Shown here piece after piece: positions 18,812 through 27,551 of a stretch of 40,001 nt of DNA (position 1 is its first letter; each line of letters starts with the position of its first letter). The notes beneath the pieces were generated by a model, which did no database searches, was not told the DNA's origin, and worked only from the letters and a program-made list of their open reading frames with translations. The translations under genes and the position numbers were made by a program. Location of the stretch: NCBI GenBank assembly GCA_011601165.1, contig GCA_011601165.1_4547.1, one strand, 5' to 3'. The stretch comes from Escherichia coli (GTDB taxonomy: Bacteria > Pseudomonadota > Gammaproteobacteria > Enterobacterales > Enterobacteriaceae).

Positions 18812-19062
18812 TATTTCCAGCTCCTATAAGCGTTCAATTGTTGTAAGCACCATTGCTCACAGCTAAAGATTTCATCTTCGGTAAATTCGCGGGAGACCAG
18901 AAGACTCCCACCGTCTGCTTCAATGATTCGGACCAGAGTTTTTCCGGAGCACGGCGAGTCATCCATTAGGACATCAAGTCCTGCCTCACTCATCTCGCGG
19001 TGAGTCCGGCCTAGCGCTGACCACTGGCTCGTGGATGCGTCGAATAACCAACGTTTACTCAT
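18811..19062 (-). CDS. 1.2: gp1.2-like protein
   Basis: 83 aa ORF between 1.1 and ligase, ends …WK; position-based. Confidence 0.5.
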   Translation of the reverse strand: MSKRWLFDASTSQWSALGRTHREMSEAGLDVLMDDSPCSGKTLVRIIEADGGSLLVSREFTEDEIFSCEQWCLQQLNAYRSWK

Positions 19063-19065
19063 GGC

Positions 19066-19245
19066 TTATACTCCTACGAAGTATTTCTCTTGGTTGACCA
19101 GAGAGTCTTTGCCTTCAGCGTTACGGAAAGCGCCCTTTACACCACCACCACGTTTAGTCTTGTTCAGCTTGCGTCCCTTAGGAATGTAACCTTCAGTCTG
19201 CTGACGTTCACGGATGCGCTCAAAGTTGATAGTGTTCTGATACAT
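19066..19245 (-). CDS. 1.1: gp1.1-like basic protein, 59 aa
   Basis: MYQNTINFERIRERQQTEGYIPKGRKLNKTKRGGG…; KGRKLNKTKR matches T7 gp1.1 as recalled; missed by ORF track. Confidence 0.65.
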   Translation of the reverse strand: MYQNTINFERIRERQQTEGYIPKGRKLNKTKRGGGVKGAFRNAEGKDSLVNQEKYFVGV

Positions 19246-19279
19246 ATGGCTAAATCTCCAGTAGTGTTTATTTAGGGTT

Positions 19280-19320
19280 AATCATGAAGGCCACGACTTT
19301 TAGTCATGACCTTTAGTCTA
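19280..19320 (-). promoter_or_regulatory. conserved RNA hairpin, candidate RNase III site (R1.1 equivalent)
   Basis: mRNA AAGGTCATGACTAAAAGTCGTGGCCTT. Confidence 0.5.
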
Positions 19321-19341
19321 ATCCTATAGTGATAGTTTAGG
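19319..19341 (-). promoter_or_regulatory. phage RNAP promoter (phi1.1 equivalent)
   Basis: CCTAAACTATCACTATAGGAT. Confidence 0.8.
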
Positions 19342-19342
19342 G

Positions 19343-19420
19343 TTAACCTCTTCTGCGTTGGATTAAAGTGAATACTGCGAGTGCTCCCAGCCACAGGGCC
19401 AGCAACTGTAGGTCTGTCAT
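19343..19420 (-). CDS. 25-aa hydrophobic peptide
   Basis: MTDLQLLALWLGALAVFTLIQRRRG; SD AAGAGGAGG 8 nt upstream; ATG overlaps stop of preceding ORF (ATGA). Confidence 0.4.
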   Translation of the reverse strand: MTDLQLLALWLGALAVFTLIQRRRG

Positions 19421-19617
19421 TTGGTAGCCTCCTCTTTAAGAGCTTGCTCGTGTGTCTGCTTAACCAGCTTAACCAGCCACTTGAATGTTACGTTAAGCCG
19501 TTTTGACAGCTCTGTAGGGATGACCGTGGTCTTCACCAGACCCTTGCCGTTGTGTTCTGTTACAGTCACGATTTGAGTCCCACCATTAACGCCAGTCTGC
19601 GTGTGTGCAAATTTCAT
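19417..19617 (-). CDS. hypothetical protein, 66 aa, immediately after RNAP gene
   Basis: ATG with SD AGGAG spacing 8. Confidence 0.55.
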   Translation of the reverse strand: MKFAHTQTGVNGGTQIVTVTEHNGKGLVKTTVIPTELSKRLNVTFKWLVKLVKQTHEQALKEEATK

Positions 19618-19631
19618 AACTCTCTCTCCTG

Positions 19632-22313
19632 TTAAGCGAATGCAAAGTCTGAAGACAAGATGTCTTCGATATTCAGTTTACCTTTCTTCGGAAGCTCAGG
19701 CAGCTTGTCGCGTTGGCTCTCATGAAGTTGGTATTCAAACTGCTCGTAGAAGTCAAGCAGCACATCGTTGTCGCGGTAGGTCTCGACCATCGTCTCACGG
19801 ACACCCCGGAACAGATACTCAGCGTCAGCCGGGATGGTCCCGAAGCTATCGTGAATCACTGCGAACGACATCACGCCATACTTACGGTGAGTGTGGACTA
19901 CAGTCTTGCGGAGGTGGCTACCATCTTGTGAGTGGACGAAGTTCGGGCTAATGCCTGACTCCTGCTTGTGCTTATCCAGCTCTTTCTTCGTGCCTTTATT
20001 GACTGTAGGCTGAAGGTTGAATGACCCTAAGAACATCAGGTTCAGACGCGTGGTATCCTTCTTGCGGTATTCCTGCCATACCGGGAACCCATCAGGTGTG
20101 ATCCAGTGTACCGGAAGGCAAGGCTTCAGGATTTCGCCAGTCTTCTTGTCCTTCACTTCAGCAGCCAGCAGCTTGGCAGCACCTTGAAGCCACTTCATCG
20201 CGTCAACCGCAGCAACTACGGTCACGCTCACAGCTTCCCAAATCATCTTAGCCATGAAGCGAGACGCTTGGCTTGGCTCGGTGAACATAGCGCCAGACCC
20301 TGAGTCAATCGCTGGCATTACGATGTCCTCATAAACTTGGTCTGCGAAACCATACTCTTTCGACCCGTAGGCCAGAGTCATGACTGAACGCTTAGTGACC
20401 TTGCGTGACATGCCGTAAGTCAGCCACTGCCGGGCCAGCTCTCGTGTCCCCAGCTTGAGACGTTCGGTAATCTCACCAGTTTTCTTGTCCTCGTGAGTTA
20501 CCATCTCGTTGTCCGTGCCGTTAACCAGCAGGACTTTAAGCTTCTCCTCAATGCGGTCAGATACGATGCGGTAGATGTCTTGGACCTTACCGGAAGGCGT
20601 CAGGTTTACTGCATGTCCACCGATGTGATCACGCAGCATCGCGCTGAAGTGCTGAATCCCAGAGCAGGACCCATCGAATGCTATCGGCAGCGAGCAGGAG
20701 TAAGACAATCCGTGGTGCATTACGCCAGCATACTCGAAGCAGAACGCTAGGAAGCAGAACGGAGAGTCTAACTTGCCCCACCACTCAATGCTGTCCATCG
20801 GTGCCTTAGCAGTAGCCATGATGTTGTCGTGGTTGTCTTCCACCCACTTGATGCGCTCCTCGAAGGTGACTTTATCAATACCCGCACAGTTTGCACCGTG
20901 GACCTTCAGCCATTTGAAACCGTCAGCACCAATAGGCTTACCGACTGCCAGAGTAAGGAGACCCTTCTGCATGTCGTTACCCTGAGGGTTGAACATCGGC
21001 ACAGCGTAGACGCGACCGCGCCAGTCCATGTTGTACGGGAACCAGATGGCCTTGAACTGGGAGAACTTGTTCGCCTGGTTAACGATAAAGCTCAGTGACA
21101 ATCTGCGTGACTGCCGGGCCTTCTCTCGGCGGTAGATACCAGCAGCAGCCTTCTTCCATGCCTTCAGTTCTTCCTCGGTCTCACCCGCATAGTCTTCAGG
21201 CTTCAGCGGCTCCATCTGAGGGATGTCGTCAATAGGCGTGTTGTTTAGCTTCTCGACCGTGTTCACCACTTCCAGCACCTTCTTGTTTACCTTCCAAGGT
21301 GTATTCTGGATGATGTTCACAGCGTCATAGACTTCAGGCATGTACACGTCCTCGTAACGCGCCACCGCAGACTTAGACCCTAAGCGAATCAGTGGTAGCG
21401 GTCTGCGACCTTTGGCCCAGTACCCACCGCCTACAACACCAGTCCACGGCTTAGGTGGAACGACGCAAGGCTGGTATACTGGAGCGATGCCCGCAAGGCT
21501 GAAGCCTCGTTGTGCCATCTTCTTGACCCAGAAGTCTGACAGGTGGATCATCTCGACGTCAGCCGCTGCATTGCCAGCACCGTAACGCGTAAGCTCGACC
21601 AGTTGTGTAGACTGAATGACAATCTCAAGCATCTTGATTCCAACGTGGACAGCCTCGGTCGGACTCCAAGTCCCCCACGCATCTTCTAGTTGACCTTGCT
21701 CCAGCATGGACGTCTCAACCGCTTGCATGTAGGCTTTCTTGTAGGATGCCCCTGCTCGCTTGTTCAGGTTATCAGCTATCGCCTTCTTGAAGTGCTCCTT
21801 CTCCTTGTCACGAATGCGGCCGAATCGGATTTCATCCTCAAGTGTGCGGCCTATCGCGGAGGCCATCGGTGTAATCGGTATCCCTTCAGGCTTGATCAGC
21901 TTGGAGAGGATGACCTTCAGTATGATAACCGCAGCAGACTCACAGGAGATGCGCAGAGAGCGGTCCTTTACGGCCTTCTCTTCAGTGCTCAACATGGTGA
22001 ATGCTACGCTAGGACGAGAGGTTGACAGCTTCCCGTCTGGACCTTCATGCCACTCCTTGACAGCTTGCGCAATCTTAGGTACCAGAGTCTGCATCAAAGG
22101 CTTGGCGACCTGATTGTCTGCCAGTTCCCCGCGCTCAGTCTGTCGCTCAAGGTTCTTGATGAAACGTCGCTCGCCTTCAGTGTATGCCTCATGCTCAAGC
22201 TGAAGCTGTTTGACTGCAAGGTCTTGCCCGTAGTGGTCAGCCAGCAGGTTAAACGGCTCAATAGCGTTAGATACATCAGAGAAGTCGTGTTTGTCAATGG
22301 AGATGACGCTCAT
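19632..22313 (-). CDS. 1: single-subunit DNA-directed RNA polymerase (T7 gp1)
   Basis: 893 aa; …HDSFGT…, C-terminus …DFAFA; colinear with T7 RNAP as recalled; recognition loop region differs from T7. Confidence 0.97.
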   Translation of the reverse strand: MSVISIDKHDFSDVSNAIEPFNLLADHYGQDLAVKQLQLEHEAYTEGERRFIKNLERQTERGELADNQVAKPLMQTLVPKIAQAVKEWHEGPDGKLSTSRPSVAFTMLSTEEKAVKDRSLRISCESAAVIILKVILSKLIKPEGIPITPMASAIGRTLEDEIRFGRIRDKEKEHFKKAIADNLNKRAGASYKKAYMQAVETSMLEQGQLEDAWGTWSPTEAVHVGIKMLEIVIQSTQLVELTRYGAGNAAADVEMIHLSDFWVKKMAQRGFSLAGIAPVYQPCVVPPKPWTGVVGGGYWAKGRRPLPLIRLGSKSAVARYEDVYMPEVYDAVNIIQNTPWKVNKKVLEVVNTVEKLNNTPIDDIPQMEPLKPEDYAGETEEELKAWKKAAAGIYRREKARQSRRLSLSFIVNQANKFSQFKAIWFPYNMDWRGRVYAVPMFNPQGNDMQKGLLTLAVGKPIGADGFKWLKVHGANCAGIDKVTFEERIKWVEDNHDNIMATAKAPMDSIEWWGKLDSPFCFLAFCFEYAGVMHHGLSYSCSLPIAFDGSCSGIQHFSAMLRDHIGGHAVNLTPSGKVQDIYRIVSDRIEEKLKVLLVNGTDNEMVTHEDKKTGEITERLKLGTRELARQWLTYGMSRKVTKRSVMTLAYGSKEYGFADQVYEDIVMPAIDSGSGAMFTEPSQASRFMAKMIWEAVSVTVVAAVDAMKWLQGAAKLLAAEVKDKKTGEILKPCLPVHWITPDGFPVWQEYRKKDTTRLNLMFLGSFNLQPTVNKGTKKELDKHKQESGISPNFVHSQDGSHLRKTVVHTHRKYGVMSFAVIHDSFGTIPADAEYLFRGVRETMVETYRDNDVLLDFYEQFEYQLHESQRDKLPELPKKGKLNIEDILSSDFAFA

Positions 22314-22382
22314 ACTTAAAGTCCTTGTTATTAGTCTTTCACTTAAAGTCTCTTTGGTCTTTCACTTGGAGTCTTAGACCTT

Positions 22383-22405
22383 TAGTCCTATAGTGATAGT
22401 TAAGT
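22383..22405 (-). promoter_or_regulatory. phage RNAP promoter directly upstream of the RNAP gene
   Basis: ACTTAACTATCACTATAGGACTA; about 75 nt before the gene 1 ATG. Confidence 0.7.
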
Positions 22406-22671
22406 CAGAAACATTTACATATCAGTGGGTTAGCGTGAAGATGACTGAAGTCACCATGAGTCGTGTGCTTGATGGTTGATCGTTGGTCTATCGCCTTCCA
22501 GCCTGAGACCAGAAGTTTACCATCTTCGGTGATCGGTCGTCCACCATACGCCAGACGCAGCAGTTCGGACTTATGGCCCTCAGCTATCATGCGGCGCTGT
22601 AAGAACATGTCACGCTGCATCTGCTCCACACGGCTACGGCTAGATGGTTTGTTAGTGTATGCGGTTTTCAT
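22405..22671 (-). CDS. hypothetical early protein, 88 aa
   Basis: ORF coupled to upstream gene (ATGA overlap). Confidence 0.55.
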   Translation of the reverse strand: MKTAYTNKPSSRSRVEQMQRDMFLQRRMIAEGHKSELLRLAYGGRPITEDGKLLVSGWKAIDQRSTIKHTTHGDFSHLHANPLICKCF

Positions 22672-22868
22672 TTCAGTTTGCTCCCAAGAGTTGCTATATC
22701 CCAGACGTTCGCTAAGTTGCGCATGAATCGTCCGTTAGGTTGACGTACAGTCCAGCGGCCCAGACGTACATAGTTGAATTTGTAGACTTTACGCGCTTTG
22801 TTGATGTCTCTCACCAGCACGTAGGCGATAAGTCCATAGCCTATGGCTATCAATAGTGCAAGACTCAT
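22668..22868 (-). CDS. small membrane protein, 66 aa
   Basis: N-terminal hydrophobic helix MSLALLIAIGYGLIAYVLV then basic tail. Confidence 0.55.
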   Translation of the reverse strand: MSLALLIAIGYGLIAYVLVRDINKARKVYKFNYVRLGRWTVRQPNGRFMRNLANVWDIATLGSKLK

Positions 22869-22954
22869 AGTGATTTCCGTTTAATGCAGTCGTATAACCC
22901 ATAGCCTATCAGCCAAATAACTGGCGCTAGGCAGACCCAATATCCCACACTCAT
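22865..22954 (-). CDS. 29-aa membrane peptide, paralog-like of the 66-aa protein
   Basis: MSVGYWVCLAPVIWLIGYGLYDCIKRKSL; SD AGGAG; stop overlaps next ATG; shares IGYGL with neighbour. Confidence 0.45.
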   Translation of the reverse strand: MSVGYWVCLAPVIWLIGYGLYDCIKRKSL

Positions 22955-22984
22955 AGTTAACTCCTATTAATGCAAGTGGTAATC

Positions 22985-23018
22985 TTTGAGGCCACCTATC
23001 AGTCGATGACCTCTCGTC
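22985..23018 (-). promoter_or_regulatory. conserved RNA hairpin variant, candidate RNase III site
   Basis: mRNA GAGGTCATCGACTGATAGGTGGCCTC. Confidence 0.4.
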
Positions 23019-23028
23019 TATCACTCTC

Positions 23029-23400
23029 CTACACCTCCACCGCTACAGTGGTCATCTTGGTTACAGTCATCCCACCAGCAAGCTCAACCGCATAGCGTAT
23101 CGCCTCCTCTTTGGACTTGAAGTCCTTTCCTGCAAGGTGGTAAATGTCGCCATTAACTACTTTGTTTGGCCTGCGACTCACTGATACAGCGTTACTGAGG
23201 CAAAGCTCACCCTTTAACCACTGAGCGTGCCAGCGCATTACGCTCTTATCTGATACGCCGAAGTCCCTTGCCACCATCCCCACCATGGATTCAAGTCCGG
23301 AGGTACCGTATTGTGGCTGGCGAACTAAATCATACGCCTTCGCTACTCGGATTTTAAACTCGACTGTGTAGCTGTTGCGGGTTTTCGCGTTGGTGCTCAT
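23029..23400 (-). CDS. early DNA-binding protein with transposase-type helix-turn-helix, 123 aa
   Basis: …YTVEFKIRVAKAY…MVARDFGVSDKSVMRWHAQW… resembles IS3-family OrfA N-terminal HTH; no DDE domain. Confidence 0.6.
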   Translation of the reverse strand: MSTNAKTRNSYTVEFKIRVAKAYDLVRQPQYGTSGLESMVGMVARDFGVSDKSVMRWHAQWLKGELCLSNAVSVSRRPNKVVNGDIYHLAGKDFKSKEEAIRYAVELAGGMTVTKMTTVAVEV

Positions 23401-23434
23401 TAGTATATCCTCTGTTAGTTATATAAGTGACAAT

Positions 23435-23466
23435 CAGTCAGGCCCTTCAGTCAAAGGACCTGTAGT
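23435..23466 (-). promoter_or_regulatory. RNA hairpin, candidate RNase III site (R0.5-like)
   Basis: mRNA CAGGTCCTT-TGACTG-AAGGGCCTG; related copy upstream of gene 0.3. Confidence 0.45.
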
Positions 23467-23476
23467 CTGGCACTCG

Positions 23477-23632
23477 TTACTTATCCTCAGCGTGCAAACT
23501 GTCGTGTATACGCTTGCGGCGATTGTAGACCACTTTCAAGAGACGCATAGTCGCATCGTGGTTCAACTGCCTGGTCTTGACCATAAGCCGGGCGCTAGTG
23601 ACGTGTTGCTGGCAGAGACCATAAGCTATCAT
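23477..23632 (-). CDS. small basic protein, 51 aa
   Basis: ATG overlaps Ocr stop (TGATG); not in ORF track. Confidence 0.4.
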   Translation of the reverse strand: MIAYGLCQQHVTSARLMVKTRQLNHDATMRLLKVVYNRRKRIHDSLHAEDK

Positions 23633-24144
23633 CACTCGCAGTCCTCCTCGGTAGGGTCGAACACTACGTTATCGTTGATGTCTTCGACCTTCAGGTGGCG
23701 ACCTACCGCATAGTGGTCTTTAGCACATGCAATAGCCTCGTAAAGTGATACAGCTTGCTCAATGATTATACCAGTCTTAGCGTCAACTACCCAGTATTCG
23801 TCCTCCTCGTCCTCCTCGTCGCTCTCTTCAGGCTCGAACCAGACCACCTCAGAGCTATTAGACACGTCGTTATATAATGCCTCATAGATGCGAGCTTGCA
23901 GTATACGCGTCACGTCCTTGGTCTCAGGCATCAGCCCGGAGTCTTCAAACTCATGGTCGATACCATCAGCAGCCATCACCGTGAAAATCTCGTGGTAATA
24001 ATGCGGAACCATATCGTCTACGACTTCATGCAGCGCATCGTGGTAGTCATCACCTTCAGCTATTTCATCGTACTGAATGCGCTCGTTAAATGCTTCAACG
24101 GTTGCAGCCAGCAGCTCATAGTATGCATTATCGTTACGTTCCAT
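23632..24144 (-). CDS. 0.3: Ocr-like DNA-mimic anti-restriction protein (T7 gp0.3 family) with C-terminal extension
   Basis: …VPHYYHEIFTVMAADGIDHEFEDSGLMPETKDVTRILQARIYEAL… matches T7 Ocr as recalled; 170 aa against 117 in T7. Confidence 0.85.
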   Translation of the reverse strand: MERNDNAYYELLAATVEAFNERIQYDEIAEGDDYHDALHEVVDDMVPHYYHEIFTVMAADGIDHEFEDSGLMPETKDVTRILQARIYEALYNDVSNSSEVVWFEPEESDEEDEEDEYWVVDAKTGIIIEQAVSLYEAIACAKDHYAVGRHLKVEDINDNVVFDPTEEDCE

Positions 24145-24184
24145 AGTTATATCCTCTCAAAGTTAAGTGTATGTTAGTGACTAT

Positions 24185-24225
24185 CAGTCAGGGCCTTCAG
24201 ATGTAGACTCAAAGACCCTGTAGTT
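24185..24225 (-). promoter_or_regulatory. RNA hairpin, candidate RNase III site (R0.3-like)
   Basis: mRNA CAGGGTCTT…AAGGCCCTG, imperfect stem. Confidence 0.45.
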
Positions 24226-24343
24226 AGTCGCTATCGGCGCACATTAAGAGTTTATCCAGATTTTTAAAGAGCATTCGCATTGGCTGTCGTCGCCGTGCTA
24301 GCCTGTTTCAGTGTTAGGCTTCACCGTTGTTTCAGTGTGGTAC

Positions 24344-24372
24344 ATCGTACAGCTTTTAAAGGAGGCTGTCAA
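24344..24372 (-). promoter_or_regulatory. host sigma70 early promoter (T7 A3-like)
   Basis: TTGACA-17 nt-TACGAT then GTACCACA, matching T7 A3 as recalled. Confidence 0.65.
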
Positions 24373-24490
24373 CCTGTTATTCTTTTACGCGGTGAGTGAC
24401 CGAATTCGACTCACGGCTAGTGCCTTATCCTTGGCTGGTCTCGGGCAGGTTTCTCGGTTCCTATCCCTACGCCATCTTGCTACGTGGTAC

Positions 24491-24520
24491 ATACTACTTT
24501 AAGTCGGTACAGCTTGTCAA
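24491..24520 (-). promoter_or_regulatory. host sigma70 early promoter (A2-like)
   Basis: TTGACA-18 nt-TAGTAT then GTACCAC. Confidence 0.55.
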
Positions 24521-24631
24521 CTACTTTCTGTCATCTGCCTGGTTTTCGTATGACTTATCAGGCTGTCTACTTAACCGGGATGACCCGGCGTCTTCACTAT
24601 CCGGTTGTTGCCGTGTCGTGTTGACGGAAGC

Positions 24632-24661
24632 TATTAAGCCACAGTATGGACCCATAGTCAA
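24632..24661 (-). promoter_or_regulatory. candidate host sigma70 promoter (A1-like)
   Basis: TTGACT preceded by AT-rich tract; -10 element poor. Confidence 0.3.
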
Positions 24662-24780
24662 TAGGTAATTTGAAATAATATTGATTGAGCTATCGTCGGC
24701 CCCATGGTGTAAGAGGATATAGTCTTTGACTAACATGTATTAGACCTTAAGTCTATAGCCATTGTGTCTATTAACTGTAG

Positions 24781-24875
24781 GTCTCTGACTGTAGGTGTTG
24801 GTGTCTTATGGTTGAGACAGTAGGTTAGTGAGGCTGTAGGTTGTGACTTATGGTTGAGACTTATGGTTATACAGA
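24781..24875. repeat. left-end short direct repeat array
   Basis: CTTATGGTTGAGAC twice plus CTGTAGG units on plus strand. Confidence 0.6.
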
Positions 24876-24876
24876 T

Positions 24877-25076
24877 AGGGACTCGGAGAAGACCAATAGT
24901 CCCGACCTATCGTCCCGACCTCCAGCCATAGCCTCAACCTATCGTTGACCTGAAGGCTTGACAGCTGGTCAAACCTTATGATAGACTGGAGGTATAGACC
25001 GAAGGTCTAGGGGTAGGGCCTTTGGTCGGACTGAAGGAGGGCCTATGGGGAGACTTGAGGTTCTTGAACTGTGAGA
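24877..25076. repeat. candidate direct terminal repeat, single collapsed copy (T7-like genome terminus)
   Basis: minus strand TCTCACAGT…CCCCATAGG… and …TCCCTATCTGT resemble the T7 terminal-repeat start and end as recalled; boundaries inferred. Confidence 0.3.
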
Positions 25077-25331
25077 TGTGGTCTCAAACTTTTGGTCCAA
25101 AACTCATCGTCACTACTGTAGGCCACAGCTAGCTTGCTAGCCACAGCCACTGTAGGTCAAGGACCGTATGTCAGGCGACACTAGGATAGACCAATAAGTA
25201 GGATGACCCTAAGTGAGCTTCTCTTAAGGTGTTACCTAAAGTCCTTGACTACAGTAGCTAAGGTCAGTAGAGTAGCGTCAGCTATGAACTGACCTTAGGT
25301 CTTACTTTCGTTGATTGTTACCATTACGGCG

Positions 25332-25490
25332 TTAATTACACTGAGACACCAGAGAACATACGAGAGTCTCGACCCACCCGACCCACTGGCTTCCAGCAGT
25401 AACGCCAGCAGCAAGTAGAACAGCAGCAAGAAACCTGTATGTAGCTCGATTGGTCGCCAGAGCTTTAAGTACAGCTTTGGTCTTTGCCAT
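25332..25490 (-). CDS. 19.5: gp19.5-like small membrane protein, 52 aa
   Basis: MAKTKAVLKALATNRATYRFLAAVLLAAGV…; TYRFL hydrophobic core as in T7 gp19.5 as recalled; SD AGGAGG. Confidence 0.6.
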   Translation of the reverse strand: MAKTKAVLKALATNRATYRFLAAVLLAAGVTAGSQWVGWVETLVCSLVSQCN

Positions 25491-25670
25491 ATGCTACATA
25501 CCTCCTGTATCTATGGTCGGTGACTATCTGTATTGGAGGGATTATGATTAATATCACCCTCCTTCCATCTGTGCAAGCCTTAGGTAAGAACTCGGAGTCT
25601 GCCTCCTAAGGTCTTGCATAAAGTCTGCATATGTATATTCACTACAGTAATACTATAAGTAACCGGGGGT

Positions 25671-25693
25671 CTTCCCTATAGTGATAGTTAAGT
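25671..25693 (-). promoter_or_regulatory. phage RNAP promoter (phiOR equivalent)
   Basis: ACTTAACTATCACTATAGGGAAG, after gene 19. Confidence 0.8.
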
Positions 25694-25787
25694 CCAAACT
25701 CCTTGTAAAACAGTAGGTTAGACTGGTAGTAACTATAGGTTACTAACCGCGTATTCATGCAGCTTTCACCTATAGTTATTCATTCAG

Positions 25788-27551
25788 CTAGTGGAACGTA
25801 ACGTATGACCCTAGCCCAAGCTCGTCGTCCATATCGTGAGTTACCCGGACCCCATTGTCCCAGAACTCAGTGTGGATGGACTCGAAGCCTTTCCGTGGGT
25901 TCTCCATCTGTTCCTCCAACCACTCCTCAGTGACTTCACGTTCACCTTTGTTGGCATCCTTAGCCATAGACTCAACGAAGAACTGCACACCGATAGCCAG
26001 TGCATCAAGTCGGTCATCGTGTGCCAAGGCTCCACGTTCACGAGAGATACGTGTCATCTGGTAGAAGAGAGAGTAGATAGGGTTACGAACACCATCCTTA
26101 TCAGAGGCTGACTGGTAGTCTTGGACGATAGCAGCAGCGTTAACGATAAGTCGGTGAGACCCCATGATAGGCTCCAGAACGTCACAGATGCGGAGTTCTT
26201 TCTGACCCTTACTCTTCACTTCAGTTACAGCAGCAGGATGGATACGGGCCGCTACAGGCTTGAATAGCTCAAGGTACATACCATCCCCGAAGTTGCCCTC
26301 AATGACGTACTCGTTGACCTTCCACTTACGACCAATCTTAGCCAGTGCTTCAAGCGTAGAGTCTTCATAGCCACCACGCATGCCACCAACTTCCATAGCG
26401 AAGATGTAGCCGTTGAGCTGGTACAGTACCGCATAACCAGTTTCATCCTTACCGCGACCACTAGGGTCAATGACCAGAATCTTCTGGGTGTACGAACTGA
26501 AGGCAGAACCTACAGTCTGATACGTGTGGTATGAGTCACCCATGAGTCCAACGTTAGGAACGTCCTCACGCTTGTTCTGAGGGTTAGGCAGCCATTGGTA
26601 GACCATTGGGCTGGATGCTGGGTCCAAGTCTGCTACGATAAGGTCACGGAGCTTCAGAGGGTACTTCTCAGCATCACTTAGGTTCGGGTTAAGCATAAAC
26701 TGTAGAGCGAAACCAGCTTTACCGTATGACAGCTCGCGTTCCTTCAGGTCTGTATCATCGAAGCGTACTTCATCAGTCGGACGCCAGTAGAAGGACTCAG
26801 GGTCCTCTTCAAGCTCTGCCTGAAGCATCGGTGCTAGACGGTCGCCGTAAGACTGCCAGTCCTTCCTGTCGCGTGGATAACGAGCAGGCCAGATAGTAGT
26901 GGTGTACCCACGACCTTCCAACTCACGATACAGGGTCATCTCGTTCTGAGGAGTACCCAGATAGATGATTGTACCTCCCGGCTTCAGGATAGCGTCGAAC
27001 TCTTTCACAAGCTCTGACAGACGGTCTCGTGCGGCCTGAGTCGCTGAGTTGTTCGGAACCTCCACGTCATCGGCAATCAGGATGTCAGCACGACTACCAG
27101 TCAACTGACCAGTGATACCAACGGACTTAACCGAAGGTGAGTGGTCTGGCTTGGCTGGTCCAACGTCGAAGCTGATAACCGCATCTCGCTGCCCCTGCTT
27201 AGGTTTTAGTTCCTGAAGCTGAGGCATGAGGTCGATGATTCGCTTGATGAAGATGGAGTTAGCATCGGCTCGTTCCTTTGAGGCCGACACAATCATGAAC
27301 TTCAAGTCTGGGTTGTTCCATAGCTTCCAGACAACGAAGGCACACGTAATGAAGGACTTCCCTATACCACGGAACGCCTGTAGGATGAAGCGCCTGTTGT
27401 CCCCAGCCGATAGTTTCTTCGCCATGTCAATCTGACAGCGAGTCGGGACTGGGAGTGACAGAGCTTTCCACAGTACGAACAGGAAGAACACGAAGTCTGC
27501 CTTCATACGTGCAGTCATTAGCGCCTGACGCGCCACTAAGTCTTTACTCAA
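25788..27551 (-). CDS. 19: terminase large subunit (T7 gp19)
   Basis: 587 aa; …[24 protein letters not shown]…[10 protein letters not shown]… as T7 gp19 as recalled; apparent TTG start with SD GAGGTG. Confidence 0.95.

What the first reader, a model, noticed from the sequence alone, without database searches (positions are those of the whole stretch)
22405..23632. Early module with no recognisable 0.7 kinase; HTH protein and paralogous membrane peptides instead
Between Ocr and the RNAP gene, T7 carries 0.4-0.7 including the 359-aa protein kinase. Here no ORF is long enough to be a kinase. Instead there is a 51-aa basic protein, a 123-aa protein with a transposase-type HTH, a 29-aa and a 66-aa membrane peptide sharing the IGYGL core, and an 88-aa protein, all translationally coupled. 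This is a distinct host-takeover cassette.
Basis: partly seen in the sequence, partly recalled or inferred. Interest (0 to 1): 0.6.

Follow-up and report, generated by a model that had tools for sequence, protein, structure and literature searches.

The report
Ordinary K1F-like phage early gene block
This is the normal early-gene region of a K1F-like (Kayfunavirus) relative of phage T7: it lacks the T7 kinase, as most of its genus does, but it still carries diverged copies of two known T7-group early genes (0.4 and T3-type 0.6), so it is not a new host-takeover cassette.

Summary
No kinase is encoded here or anywhere else in the window.

- **51-aa protein:** a diverged gp0.4, the T7 FtsZ inhibitor. 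Evidence: hhalign 95.8%, PHROG cross-hits, and a Pfam Phage_T7_GP04 hit on an 80%-identical relative.
- **66-aa membrane protein:** the homologue of T3 gp0.6 and K11 gp0.6A.
- **29-aa, 66-aa and 88-aa genes:** widespread Kayfunavirus genes, found in 94 to more than 200 phage records.
- **Kinase:** absent from the type phage K1F and from about 80% of relatives. About 20% carry a short 244-aa kinase in the same slot.
- **123-aa HTH protein:** the only uncommon part. It is an accessory gene (24 records) sitting between two RNase III-type hairpins. Relatives carry it next to a kinase, so it is not a substitute for one.
- **"IGYGL" paralogy:** not supported statistically.
- **Translational coupling:** holds at three of five junctions.

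One useful by-product: a published paper says K1F lacks gene 0.4 and that its FtsZ inhibitor is unknown. This gene family is the obvious candidate.

The parts
24344..24520 (-). Two sigma-70-type promoter-like sites (TTGACA-18-TAGTAT at 24520-24491; TTGACA-17-TACGAT at 24372-24344) upstream of ocr. They are probably the host-RNAP early promoters, equivalent to T7 A1-A3.
   Evidence: Consensus scan, 10 of 12 matches each. The position matches the annotated A promoters of T7 and T3. Function is inferred.
24175..24233 (-). Irregular hairpin upstream of ocr, probably an RNase III processing site (R0.3 equivalent).
   Evidence: Fold -24.1 kcal/mol, z -2.6. Its sequence is shared with the hairpin upstream of the 123-aa gene and it resembles the annotated T3 R0.3 site.
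23632..24144 (-). ocr (gene 0.3), 170 aa, with a C-terminal extension of about 55 aa as in K1F.
   Evidence: Pfam ocr E 1.6e-31, phrog_2568 E 7e-55, 85% identity to K1F 0.3.
23477..23632 (-). 51-aa basic protein; a diverged gp0.4 (K1F gp0.35). Its start overlaps the ocr stop (TGATG).
   Evidence: hhalign against the T7 gp0.4 family gives 95.8% probability, E 7.6e-9, over 40 columns. It is in phrog_5058 together with K11 gp0.4, and T7 gp0.4 hits phrog_5058 at E 9e-5. The 80%-identical protein in L032 carries Pfam PF26807 Phage_T7_GP04.
23426..23474 (-). Hairpin A in the 76-nt gap before the 123-aa gene. It resembles the ocr-upstream hairpin and is probably an RNase III site belonging to the inserted cassette.
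   Evidence: 10-bp GC-rich upper stem and alignment with the upstream-ocr hairpin. It is absent from relatives that lack the 123-aa gene.
23029..23400 (-). 123-aa accessory early protein. Residues about 10-65 form a homeodomain/transposase-type HTH; residues about 66-123 form a nearly invariant C-terminal domain of unknown fold.
22969..23035 (-). Hairpin B, the genus-wide RNase III-type site that precedes the 29-aa gene (or the gp3-like gene) in all Kayfunavirus loci examined.
   Evidence: Fold -24.9 kcal/mol, z -2.7. The 9-bp stem is kept in 14 of 14 loci, and all 6 one-sided changes keep pairing. The core AGGTCATC...GGTGGCCT is as in the annotated T3 R0.5 and R1 sites.
22865..22954 (-). 29-aa single-pass membrane peptide. 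It carries the strong Shine-Dalgarno sequence (AGGAG) of the third translational unit.
   Evidence: Full-length conservation in 94 phage records, pN/pS 0.27 in this frame, hydrophobic segment.
22668..22868 (-). 66-aa protein with an N-terminal membrane anchor and a basic tail. It is the homologue of T3 gp0.6, K11 gp0.6A, K1F '0.6' and gp0.37. ATGA-coupled to the 29-aa gene.
   Evidence: phrog_2385 E 1.8e-32; K11 gp0.6A is in the same PHROG; 40% identity to T3 gp0.6, E 8e-10; 97% identity to K1F 0.6.
22405..22671 (-). 88-aa basic protein, a genus-core early gene (gp0.38 of K1F, EcoDS1 and Dev2). ATGA-coupled to the 66-aa gene. Function unknown.
   Evidence: phrog_7066 E 8.6e-40; 224 phage records; 133 protein clusters, all on phage-size contigs. 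The AlphaFold2 model is unusable, pLDDT 47.
22385..22410 (-). Phage-RNAP promoter (CTTAACTATCACTATAGGAC) between the 88-aa gene and gene 1.
   Evidence: The core motif occurs 13 times in the window against 2.5 expected, nearly all on the coding strand. Full-site comparison. The site is conserved at this position in 20 related loci.
19632..22313 (-). Gene 1, the T7-type single-subunit RNA polymerase (893 aa). It marks the end of the early block.
   Evidence: 98% identity to K1F RNAP over the first 247 aa.

Best explanation
The region is the class I (early) gene block of a Kayfunavirus, the K1F-like branch of the T7 group. The window holds the genome circularly permuted and on the minus strand.

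**How the block is most likely expressed**
- Host RNA polymerase starts at sigma-70-type promoters upstream of ocr and reads through to gene 1 (inferred).
- The transcript is most likely cut at RNase III-type hairpins into translational units: (i) ocr plus the 51-aa gene, (ii) the 123-aa gene alone, and (iii) the 29-aa, 66-aa and 88-aa genes. A phage promoter and gene 1 follow (inferred).
- Within units (i) and (iii) translation is coupled through overlapping stop and start codons (shown by the sequence).

**What the products are**
- The 51-aa product is a diverged gp0.4 (shown). It most likely binds monomeric FtsZ and blocks cell division as T7 gp0.4 does (inferred). K1F infection is reported to block division.
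- The 66-aa product is the T3-type gp0.6, a membrane-anchored basic protein (shown). Its target is unknown.
- The 29-aa membrane peptide supplies the ribosome entry for that unit (inferred).
- The 88-aa protein (gp0.38) is a genus-core gene of unknown function.
- The 123-aa protein is an optional cassette (hairpin plus gene) inserted into a recombination-prone slot between gene 0.4 and hairpin B. In other members the slot is empty or holds a 41-aa ORF, a 55-aa membrane protein or a 244-aa kinase. I take it to be a small DNA-binding early protein whose conserved C-terminal domain carries the main activity, either dimerisation or binding of a host target. That function is inferred and uncertain.

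**The kinase**
The lack of a gp0.7 kinase is the usual state of the genus, not a replacement event.
For: - **Identity and synteny.** 237 phage records match the region, nearly all Kayfunavirus or enterobacterial T7-like phages, with the same gene order.
- **gp0.4.** T7 gp0.4 hits phrog_5058 at E 9e-5, and the 51-aa protein hits the T7 gp0.4 family phrog_7202 at E 0.059. K11 gp0.4 is in phrog_5058 at E 5e-25. hhalign gives 95.8%, E 7.6e-9, with controls below 8%. Pfam Phage_T7_GP04 hits the 80%-identical L032 protein and the fusion protein P0029. The FtsZ-critical residue L35 of T7 gp0.4 aligns with a conserved Leu (PMC13423816). K1F mislocalises FtsZ and blocks division (PMC9372555).
- **gp0.6.**
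- **Core genes.**
- **Kinase.** None in the window. K1F has none between 0.3 and 1.0. The 244-aa kinase type is in 44 records, against 224 for the core 88-aa gene. It sits in the variable slot in GW1, Dev2 and EP1.
- **Hairpins.**
- **HTH cassette.** 24 records and 29 protein clusters, all on phage contigs. The C-terminal 58 codons show many synonymous but few replacement changes. The domain is kept in in-frame fusions to Ocr, gp0.4, a SAM-lyase fragment and the 41-aa ORF. Distant homologues with the same two-domain build lie in the early regions of other T7-like contigs, next to full kinases.
Against: - No experiment bears on this phage.
- W28 of T7 gp0.4, the second residue shown to be needed for FtsZ binding, is His in this protein. 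FtsZ binding is therefore plausible but not assured.
- The window's own 51-aa sequence got no hit in the local, older Pfam copy. The Pfam evidence rests on relatives.
- The RNase III sites are inferred from shape and from likeness to annotated T3 sites. Rfam has no model for them, covariation is limited to one-sided changes, and another annotator called the same hairpins rho-independent terminators.
- No hairpin of significant stability was found just upstream of gene 1 (z 0.16).
- The fold of the C-terminal domain of the 123-aa protein could not be predicted (pLDDT below 50 for residues 73-83 and 110-123), and no structure match was significant.
Confidence: 0.85

Rival explanations
1. One reading: the five ORFs form a distinct host-takeover cassette, unrelated to T7 genes 0.4-0.7, that functionally replaces them, the kinase included.
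For: There is no kinase. The 29-aa, 88-aa and 123-aa proteins show no detectable similarity to T7 0.5 or 0.6 or to T3 0.65. The 66-aa protein is not detectably related to T7 gp0.6A/B.
Against: Two of the five are members of known T7-group early families, gp0.4 and T3/K11 gp0.6. The layout is shared by hundreds of sequenced phages. The HTH gene and a kinase co-occur in GW1 and in L026/L029.
Confidence: 0.07
2. The 123-aa gene is a remnant or passenger of a mobile element, an IS3/IS66-type OrfA (TnpA-like HTH protein), with no role in infection.
For: Its best family matches are transposase HTH models: HTH_Tnp_1, IS66 accessory TnpA at E 6e-4, and PHROG 'transposase' families. Databases label relatives 'Transposase'. 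It has a patchy distribution in a variable slot.
Against: There is no transposase catalytic ORF, inverted repeats or target duplication next to it. The flanks are phage hairpins. All homologues found are on T7-like phage contigs and always in the early region. The non-HTH C-terminal domain is the best-conserved part and is under purifying selection.
Confidence: 0.06
3. The 29-aa and 66-aa membrane proteins are paralogues that arose by duplication, and they act as a pair through the shared IGYGL helix motif.
For: They share an IGYGL 5-mer, are adjacent and are translationally coupled. Both are single-pass with basic residues after the helix.
Against: hhalign probability is 2% and the shuffle test gives p of 0.04-0.07. 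The motif varies within the 29-aa family (IAWGL, IAFGL, IGYGI) and is absent from the T3 and K11 gp0.6 orthologues (VYLCI, VYALI). K1F has the 66-aa gene without the 29-aa gene.
Confidence: 0.1

Closest known systems
Early (class I) region of Escherichia phage K1F and other Kayfunavirus members (genes 0.3, 0.35, 0.37/'0.6', 0.38, 1)
   Same: Same gene order, same hairpins, same phage promoter before gene 1, and no kinase. Protein identities to K1F are 85% (Ocr), 80% (51-aa), 97% (66-aa) and 81% over the full length (88-aa).
   Different: K1F has a 55-aa membrane protein (gp3) in the variable slot and lacks both the 29-aa gene and the 123-aa HTH gene. The closest HTH gene in a named phage is 77% identical (pO2) and the closest in a metagenome contig is 94%.
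T7 gp0.4 (Pfam PF26807 Phage_T7_GP04), an inhibitor of FtsZ polymerisation
   Same: About 51 aa. It lies directly after gene 0.3 with a one-base stop/start overlap. The profile match runs over 40 of 51 residues. The YGL motif, M21/V22, M32, L35, K36 and Y39 are conserved.
   Different: About 34% identity to T7 gp0.4. W28 is replaced by His. The protein is much more basic (pI 10.3). FtsZ binding is untested.
T3 gp0.6 / Klebsiella phage K11 gp0.6A (phrog_2385)
   Same: 65-66 aa, with an N-terminal transmembrane helix followed by VRD..K..KV.K and the TVR.PNGRF motif. 40-43% identity.
   Different: In T3 and K11 it lies just upstream of the kinase gene (T3 has gene 0.65 in between); here it is followed by the 88-aa gene. 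It is not detectably related to T7 gp0.6A/B, the reported MreB inhibitor, so that function cannot be transferred.
T7 gp0.7 protein kinase (Pfam PF27024 Phage_T7_kinase)
   Same: Only the genomic neighbourhood. The variable slot holding the 123-aa gene is where some Kayfunavirus members carry a 244-aa kinase that is 32% identical to T7 gp0.7 residues 27-219.
   Different: Nothing in this window resembles a kinase.
IS3/IS66-type transposase HTH proteins (Pfam HTH_Tnp_1) and the Brinker-type homeodomain-like DNA-binding domain
   Same: The three-helix HTH at residues about 10-65. Family members pass the Pfam cut-offs. The top structural neighbours are TnpE, homeodomains and transposase DNA-binding domains, although none is significant.
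   Different: There is no transposase catalytic partner and no IS ends. A phage-specific C-terminal domain is attached. The window protein itself is below the Pfam cut-off.

Membership tests
Phage_T7_GP04 (gp0.4) family | Sequence profile match over the two-helix, roughly 50-aa protein | tested here: met
   hhalign gives 95.8%, E 7.6e-9, over 40 columns, with controls below 8%. Reciprocal PHROG cross-hits. Pfam PF26807 hits the 80%-identical L032 protein and P0029. The local, older Pfam copy gave no hit for the window protein itself.
Phage_T7_GP04 (gp0.4) family | Position immediately downstream of gene 0.3, with overlapping stop and start codons | tested here: met
   TGATG overlap at 23630-23634. 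T7 0.3 and 0.4 share base 1278.
Phage_T7_GP04 (gp0.4) family | FtsZ-contact residues W28 and L35, shown by mutation in T7 (PMC13423816) | tested here: inconclusive
   The L35 equivalent is conserved, while the W28 equivalent is His.
Phage_T7_GP04 (gp0.4) family | Binds FtsZ and blocks cell division | not testable with these tools
   The only indirect evidence is that K1F infection mislocalises FtsZ (PMC9372555).
T3 gp0.6 / K11 gp0.6A family (phrog_2385) | Profile match, an N-terminal transmembrane helix and the TVR.PNGRF motif | tested here: met
   E 1.8e-32 to phrog_2385. K11 gp0.6A matches the same PHROG at E 1.5e-29. T3 gp0.6 is 40% identical, E 8e-10. Alignment.
T7 gp0.6A/B (reported MreB inhibitor) | Sequence similarity to T7 gp0.6 | tested here: not met
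   No BLAST, PHROG or hhalign signal for any of the window ORFs.
T7 gp0.5 | Sequence similarity to the 47-aa T7 membrane protein | tested here: not met
   hhalign probability at most 0.4% for the 29-aa and 66-aa families. The only resemblance is positional: a small membrane peptide coupled to the next gene.
T7 gp0.7 kinase (Phage_T7_kinase) | An ORF with the kinase domain between gene 0.3 and gene 1 | tested here: not met
   The longest ORF on the coding strand in this interval is 123 aa. tblastn with the T7, K11, GW1 and Dev2 kinases gives a best E of 1.4 anywhere in the window.
HTH_Tnp_1 (PF01527) DNA-binding domain | Score above the Pfam gathering threshold, and a three-helix HTH fold | tested here: inconclusive
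   The window protein scores 20.3 bits against a 24.1 cut-off. Homologues P0023 (27.6), P0198 (34.1) and P0201 (25.0) pass. AlphaFold2 gives three helices at pLDDT 80-89.
Transposase / insertion sequence | A DDE or other catalytic domain, terminal inverted repeats and bacterial IS copies | tested here: not met
   The protein has only an HTH and a 58-aa domain. The flanks are phage hairpins. All homologues are on T7-like phage contigs.
Kayfunavirus early region | The synteny 0.3 - 0.35 - variable slot - (29 aa) - 0.37 - 0.38 - phage promoter - gene 1 | tested here: met
   Gene maps of 20 or more loci, the promoter and hairpin B.
T7/T3 RNase III processing sites (R0.3, R0.5, R1) | An irregular hairpin with upper and lower stems in the intergenic gaps, cleaved by RNase III | tested here: inconclusive
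   The shape and the sequence likeness to annotated T3 sites are met for three gaps. Cleavage cannot be tested, there is no Rfam model, and the gap before gene 1 does not fold significantly.

The most novel reading that the evidence does not exclude
The 123-aa protein represents an uncharacterised family of early effectors restricted to T7-like phages. It joins an N-terminal homeodomain-like HTH to a nearly invariant 58-aa C-terminal domain of unknown fold. The C-terminal domain is the selected part, since it survives in-frame fusions to Ocr, gp0.4 and other N-termini. It would act on a host target, for example as an anti-defence or host-shutoff factor. Separately, the 51-aa gp0.4-like protein (K1F gp0.35) would be the 'unknown' FtsZ inhibitor of K1F.
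Probability: 0.3. Interest if true: 0.45.

Novelty: new member of a known kind. Interest (0 to 1): 0.22.

Why it matters
As posed, the finding matters little. A T7 relative without gp0.7 is the normal condition of the K1F-like genus, and the small ORFs are its standard early genes. Two points have some practical value.

1. A 2022 paper states that K1F lacks gene 0.4 although it blocks FtsZ, and that the peptide responsible is unknown (PMC9372555). The profile evidence here identifies the gene right after ocr (K1F gp0.35, this window's 51-aa gene) as a diverged gp0.4. That makes the question testable with one deletion or one expression construct.

2. The slot between gene 0.4 and the next RNase III-type hairpin is a hot spot for accessory early genes. 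Depending on the phage it holds the HTH protein, a short kinase, a membrane protein or a 41-aa ORF. Such slots are where host-range and anti-defence functions of therapeutic K1-type and other coliphages are likely to be found.

Tried and rejected
- **AlphaFold2 model of the 88-aa protein.** Mean pLDDT 47, so it is unusable, and no fold search was run on it.
- **AlphaFold2 model of the 123-aa protein.** Only the HTH is confident. Foldseek against the PDB gave no hit with E below 0.7. A PDB sequence-profile search gave only Brinker at E 0.35. BFVD returned a family member and one 26%-identical 'transposase' of Pectobacterium phage Phoria.
- **Exhaustive HMMER search with the C-terminal 58 aa.** The top hits to proteins of 442-3313 aa, with 4-24 matched stretches each, looked exciting. 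For the three I checked, they are short repeat motifs in BNR or beta-roll repeat proteins, such as VTGDIQHLAG and IAVSGNNVHVAW. I rejected them as spurious. P0193 and P0197 were not inspected individually.
- **Weak Pfam LysM3 hit on the C-terminal domain.** E 0.24 and 0.04, too weak to use.
- **Rfam scan of 19000-26000.** Nothing found.
- **NCBIfam.** Nothing useful.
- **Homology of the 29-aa, 66-aa and 88-aa proteins to T7 0.5 or 0.6B, or to T3 0.65.** None.
- **The 'protein kinase' label on CY1 and ZH4 records.** The CY1 CDS I checked is the 169-aa Ocr gene, misannotated; ZH4 was not opened.
- **The K1F genome paper (Scholl and Merril 2005).** It could not be retrieved. That K1F lacks a kinase therefore rests on the RefSeq annotation and my gene maps.
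- **Exact-sequence look-up of the window's 66-aa protein.** Not on record.
Full report
**What the window is**

The genes around the finding lie on the minus strand. In order they are a T7-type terminase large subunit (25788-27551), a non-coding stretch of about 1.5 kb, ocr (23632-24144), five small ORFs, and a T7-type RNA polymerase gene (19632-22313).

A megablast of 22300-24200 finds 237 phage records. Almost all are Kayfunavirus (K1F-like Studiervirinae) or close enterobacterial relatives, at 85-91% identity. The best coverage is 93%, in Escherichia phage pO2. The window is therefore a circularly permuted genome of a K1F-like phage, and the finding is its early (class I) region.

**Check of the observation**

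All five ORFs are present at the stated coordinates.
- The first is 51 aa from the ATG at 23632. That ATG overlaps the ocr stop as TGATG, exactly as T7 genes 0.3 and 0.4 share one base.
- The 29/66 and 66/88 junctions are ATGA overlaps.
- The 123-aa gene is separated from its neighbours by gaps of 76 and 74 nt. Each gap holds a hairpin and its own Shine-Dalgarno sequence. 'All translationally coupled' is therefore only partly right.
- No kinase is encoded. The longest coding-strand ORF in the interval is 123 aa. tblastn with the T7, K11, GW1 and Dev2 kinases finds nothing in the whole 40 kb (best E 1.4).
- The ORFs are real genes. Each is conserved in related phages. For the shortest one, the 29-aa frame shows pN/pS 0.27, against 1.2-1.3 in the other frames.

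**The 51-aa protein is a diverged gp0.4**
- Pairwise identity to T7 gp0.4 is only 34% over 41 residues.
- It belongs to phrog_5058 (E 4e-25) and weakly hits phrog_7202, the T7 gp0.4 family (E 0.059). T7 gp0.4 in turn hits phrog_5058 at E 9e-5 over its full length.
- The protein that the Klebsiella phage K11 annotators named gp0.4 is a full member of phrog_5058 (E 4.8e-25) and also hits phrog_7202 (E 2e-4).
- A profile-profile comparison of 17 Kayfunavirus/K11 sequences against 40 or so T7-type gp0.4 sequences gives 95.8% probability, E 7.6e-9, over 40 aligned columns. With Kayfunavirus sequences alone it still gives 88.7%. Reversed-sequence and unrelated-family controls give less than 8%.
- The precomputed Pfam annotation of the large protein collection assigns PF26807, named Phage_T7_GP04, to the 51-aa gene after ocr in contig L032. 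That protein is 80% identical to the window protein. The same family is assigned to P0029, a fusion carrying this N-terminus. The local, older Pfam copy lacks this hit.

T7 gp0.4 sequesters monomeric FtsZ, and W28 and L35 are required for this (PMC13423816). In the alignment, L35 is conserved and W28 is His.

Dhanoa et al. 2022 showed that K1F infection mislocalises FtsZ and blocks division. They also stated that K1F 'lacks the 0.4 genes', had no BLAST similarity to gp0.4, and that the inhibitory peptide is unknown (PMC9372555). K1F's 49-aa gene after ocr (gp0.35) is 80% identical to the window protein. This family is therefore the obvious candidate.

**The 66-aa protein is the T3-type gp0.6**

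It is 97% identical to the K1F gene annotated '0.6', 43% identical to K11 gp0.6A and 40% identical to T3 gp0.6 (E 8e-10). K11 gp0.6A falls in the same PHROG (phrog_2385). All of these share an N-terminal transmembrane helix and the motif TVR.PNGRF.

It shows no detectable relation to T7 gp0.6A/B. The MreB-inhibitor function reported for T7 gp0.6 therefore cannot be transferred.

**The 29-aa and 88-aa genes**

The 29-aa peptide is conserved at full length in 94 records, at 55-97% identity. The 88-aa protein is gp0.38 of K1F, EcoDS1 and Dev2. It is found in 224 phage records and 133 protein clusters, all on phage-size contigs, and it has an optional N-terminal extension. Its AlphaFold2 model is unusable (pLDDT 47).

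The proposed paralogy of the 29-aa and 66-aa peptides is not supported.
- hhalign probability is 2%.
- A Smith-Waterman shuffle test gives p of 0.04-0.07.
- The motif varies in the 29-aa family (IAWGL, IAFGL, IGYGI).
- It is absent from the T3 and K11 gp0.6 orthologues.

**The 123-aa protein**

This is the only uncommon element.
- *Distribution.* tblastn finds it in 24 of 50,697 phage records, best 77% identity. The 5.8-billion-protein collection holds 29 clusters, best 94%.
- *N-terminal half.* It is a homeodomain/transposase-type HTH. The window protein is below the Pfam cut-off, but homologues pass HTH_Tnp_1 or BrkDBD. AlphaFold2 gives three helices at pLDDT 80-89. The nearest structures are transposase and homeodomain DNA-binding domains, though none is significant.
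- *C-terminal 58 residues.* They are nearly invariant across the family, while the HTH halves diverge to about 35% identity. They carry many synonymous differences (for example 18 synonymous against 9 replacement codons between the window and pO2), so the protein sequence is under purifying selection.
- *Fusions.* The domain also occurs fused in frame to Ocr (IMEP24), to a gp0.4 N-terminus (P0029), to a SAM-lyase N-terminal fragment (Dev2 gp0.2) and to the 41-aa slot ORF (P0027). Ascertainment favours in-frame cases, so I treat this as suggestive only.
- *Exhaustive search.* A search with the domain finds 13 representatives among 1.84 billion. The real ones are 109-118-aa proteins with the same HTH-plus-domain build. 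The hits to large repeat proteins are short-motif artefacts.
- *Context of distant homologues.* Two of them lie in the early regions of other T7-like contigs of about 40 kb. Both contigs encode full-length kinases of 343 and 408 aa (Pfam Phage_T7_kinase). In Cronobacter phage GW1 the HTH gene abuts a 244-aa kinase. The HTH protein is therefore not a substitute for the kinase.

**The variable slot and the kinase**

Gene maps of more than 20 loci and the intergenic sequences show an invariant frame: [ocr or SAM lyase] - gp0.4-like - SLOT - hairpin B - [29 aa] - gp0.6 (T3-type) - gp0.38 - phage promoter - gene 1.

The slot is either empty or holds one or more of the following:
- a 41-aa ORF;
- a second hairpin plus the HTH gene;
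- a 244-aa kinase that is 32% identical to T7 gp0.7 residues 27-219 (phrog_15752).

In K1F-type loci a 55-aa membrane protein follows hairpin B, where the 29-aa gene otherwise begins.

The short kinase (80% identity or more) occurs in 44 records, against 224 for the core 88-aa gene. Roughly four in five members, including K1F itself, have no kinase.

**Transcript architecture (inferred)**
- Two sigma-70-type promoter-like sites lie upstream of ocr.
- Three intergenic hairpins, upstream of ocr, of the HTH gene and of the 29-aa gene, fold better than shuffles (z -2.6, -1.6 and -2.7).
- They resemble each other and the annotated RNase III sites R0.3, R0.5 and R1 of T3. The core AGGTCATC...GGTGGCCT of hairpin B is nearly identical to those sites.
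- The 9-bp stem of hairpin B is kept in 14 of 14 loci, and all six one-sided substitutions preserve pairing.
- Rfam has no matching family. One GenBank annotator called these hairpins terminators.
- I conclude they are most likely RNase III sites that cut the early transcript into ocr plus 0.4, the HTH gene alone, and 29+66+88. This step is inferred.
- A phage-RNAP promoter (core TCACTATAGG, 13 sites against 2.5 expected) sits between the 88-aa gene and gene 1 and is conserved in 20 related loci.

**Verdict**

This is the ordinary early region of a Kayfunavirus, with diverged gp0.4 and T3-type gp0.6 homologues, two genus-typical genes of unknown function, and one accessory HTH gene in a known-variable slot. 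It is a new member of a known kind.

The residual interest lies in two things. One is the uncharacterised HTH/C-terminal-domain family. The other is the link between the gp0.4-like gene and the unexplained FtsZ phenotype of K1F.

Noticed in passing
window 22385-22410 (-), and L006 2478-2492 and others: A full phage-RNAP promoter (CTTAACTATCACTATAGGAC) lies directly upstream of the RNAP gene itself and overlaps the stop codon of the 88-aa gene. It is conserved at this place in 20 Kayfunavirus loci. T7's annotation shows no phage promoter before gene 1. This suggests self-amplifying expression of the polymerase.
   Followed up: partly
window 23632-23800 (-), residues about 118-170 of Ocr: Ocr here is 170 aa, against 117 in T7 and 110-114 in many Kayfunavirus relatives. 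It carries a C-terminal extension of about 55 aa (EYWVVDAKTG...), shared with K1F but missing in others. Its function is unknown.
   Followed up: no
L024 1275-1835 (IMEP24); L033 781-1041 (P0029); L023 759-1076 (Dev2 gp0.2): Deletion fusions join the conserved C-terminal domain of the HTH protein in frame to Ocr, to gp0.4 or to a SAM-lyase N-terminal fragment. The IMEP24 junction lies at a short shared 'AIA' stretch. The domain seems to be retained when its HTH is lost.
   Followed up: partly
L003 1047-1556 (CY1); L004 1567-1725 (CHX131); RefSeq records of K1F, SH3 and Dev2: Misleading public annotations. The CY1 Ocr CDS is labelled 'protein kinase' (ZH4 carries the same label in the hit list). 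The gp0.4-like gene is labelled 'NinH'. The T7-type RNAP is labelled 'N4-like RNA polymerase'. Dev2 gp0.2 is labelled 'SAM-dependent methyltransferase'. The HTH protein of SFPH2 is labelled 'Transposase'.
   Followed up: partly
L002 1614-1815, L003 1711-1913, L032 1237-1362 and others: A conserved 41-aa ORF (MYQITYSSEQAFYDGCYEMMKRGACYV...) occupies the variable slot in many relatives. It is absent from this window.
   Followed up: no
window 24145-25787: A non-coding stretch of about 1.6 kb lies between the terminase gene and ocr. It contains a phage promoter-like site at 25675-25684 (-), probably the phiOL equivalent, and the sigma-70-type sites. It presumably spans the genome ends and the terminal repeat, so the window is a permuted whole genome.
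   Followed up: no
window 22405-22470 (-), residues 69-87 of the 88-aa protein: A conserved His-rich C-terminal motif (IKHTTHGDFSHLHANPLICK; H69, H77 and H79 are nearly invariant and C85 is mostly kept) might bind a metal.
   Followed up: no
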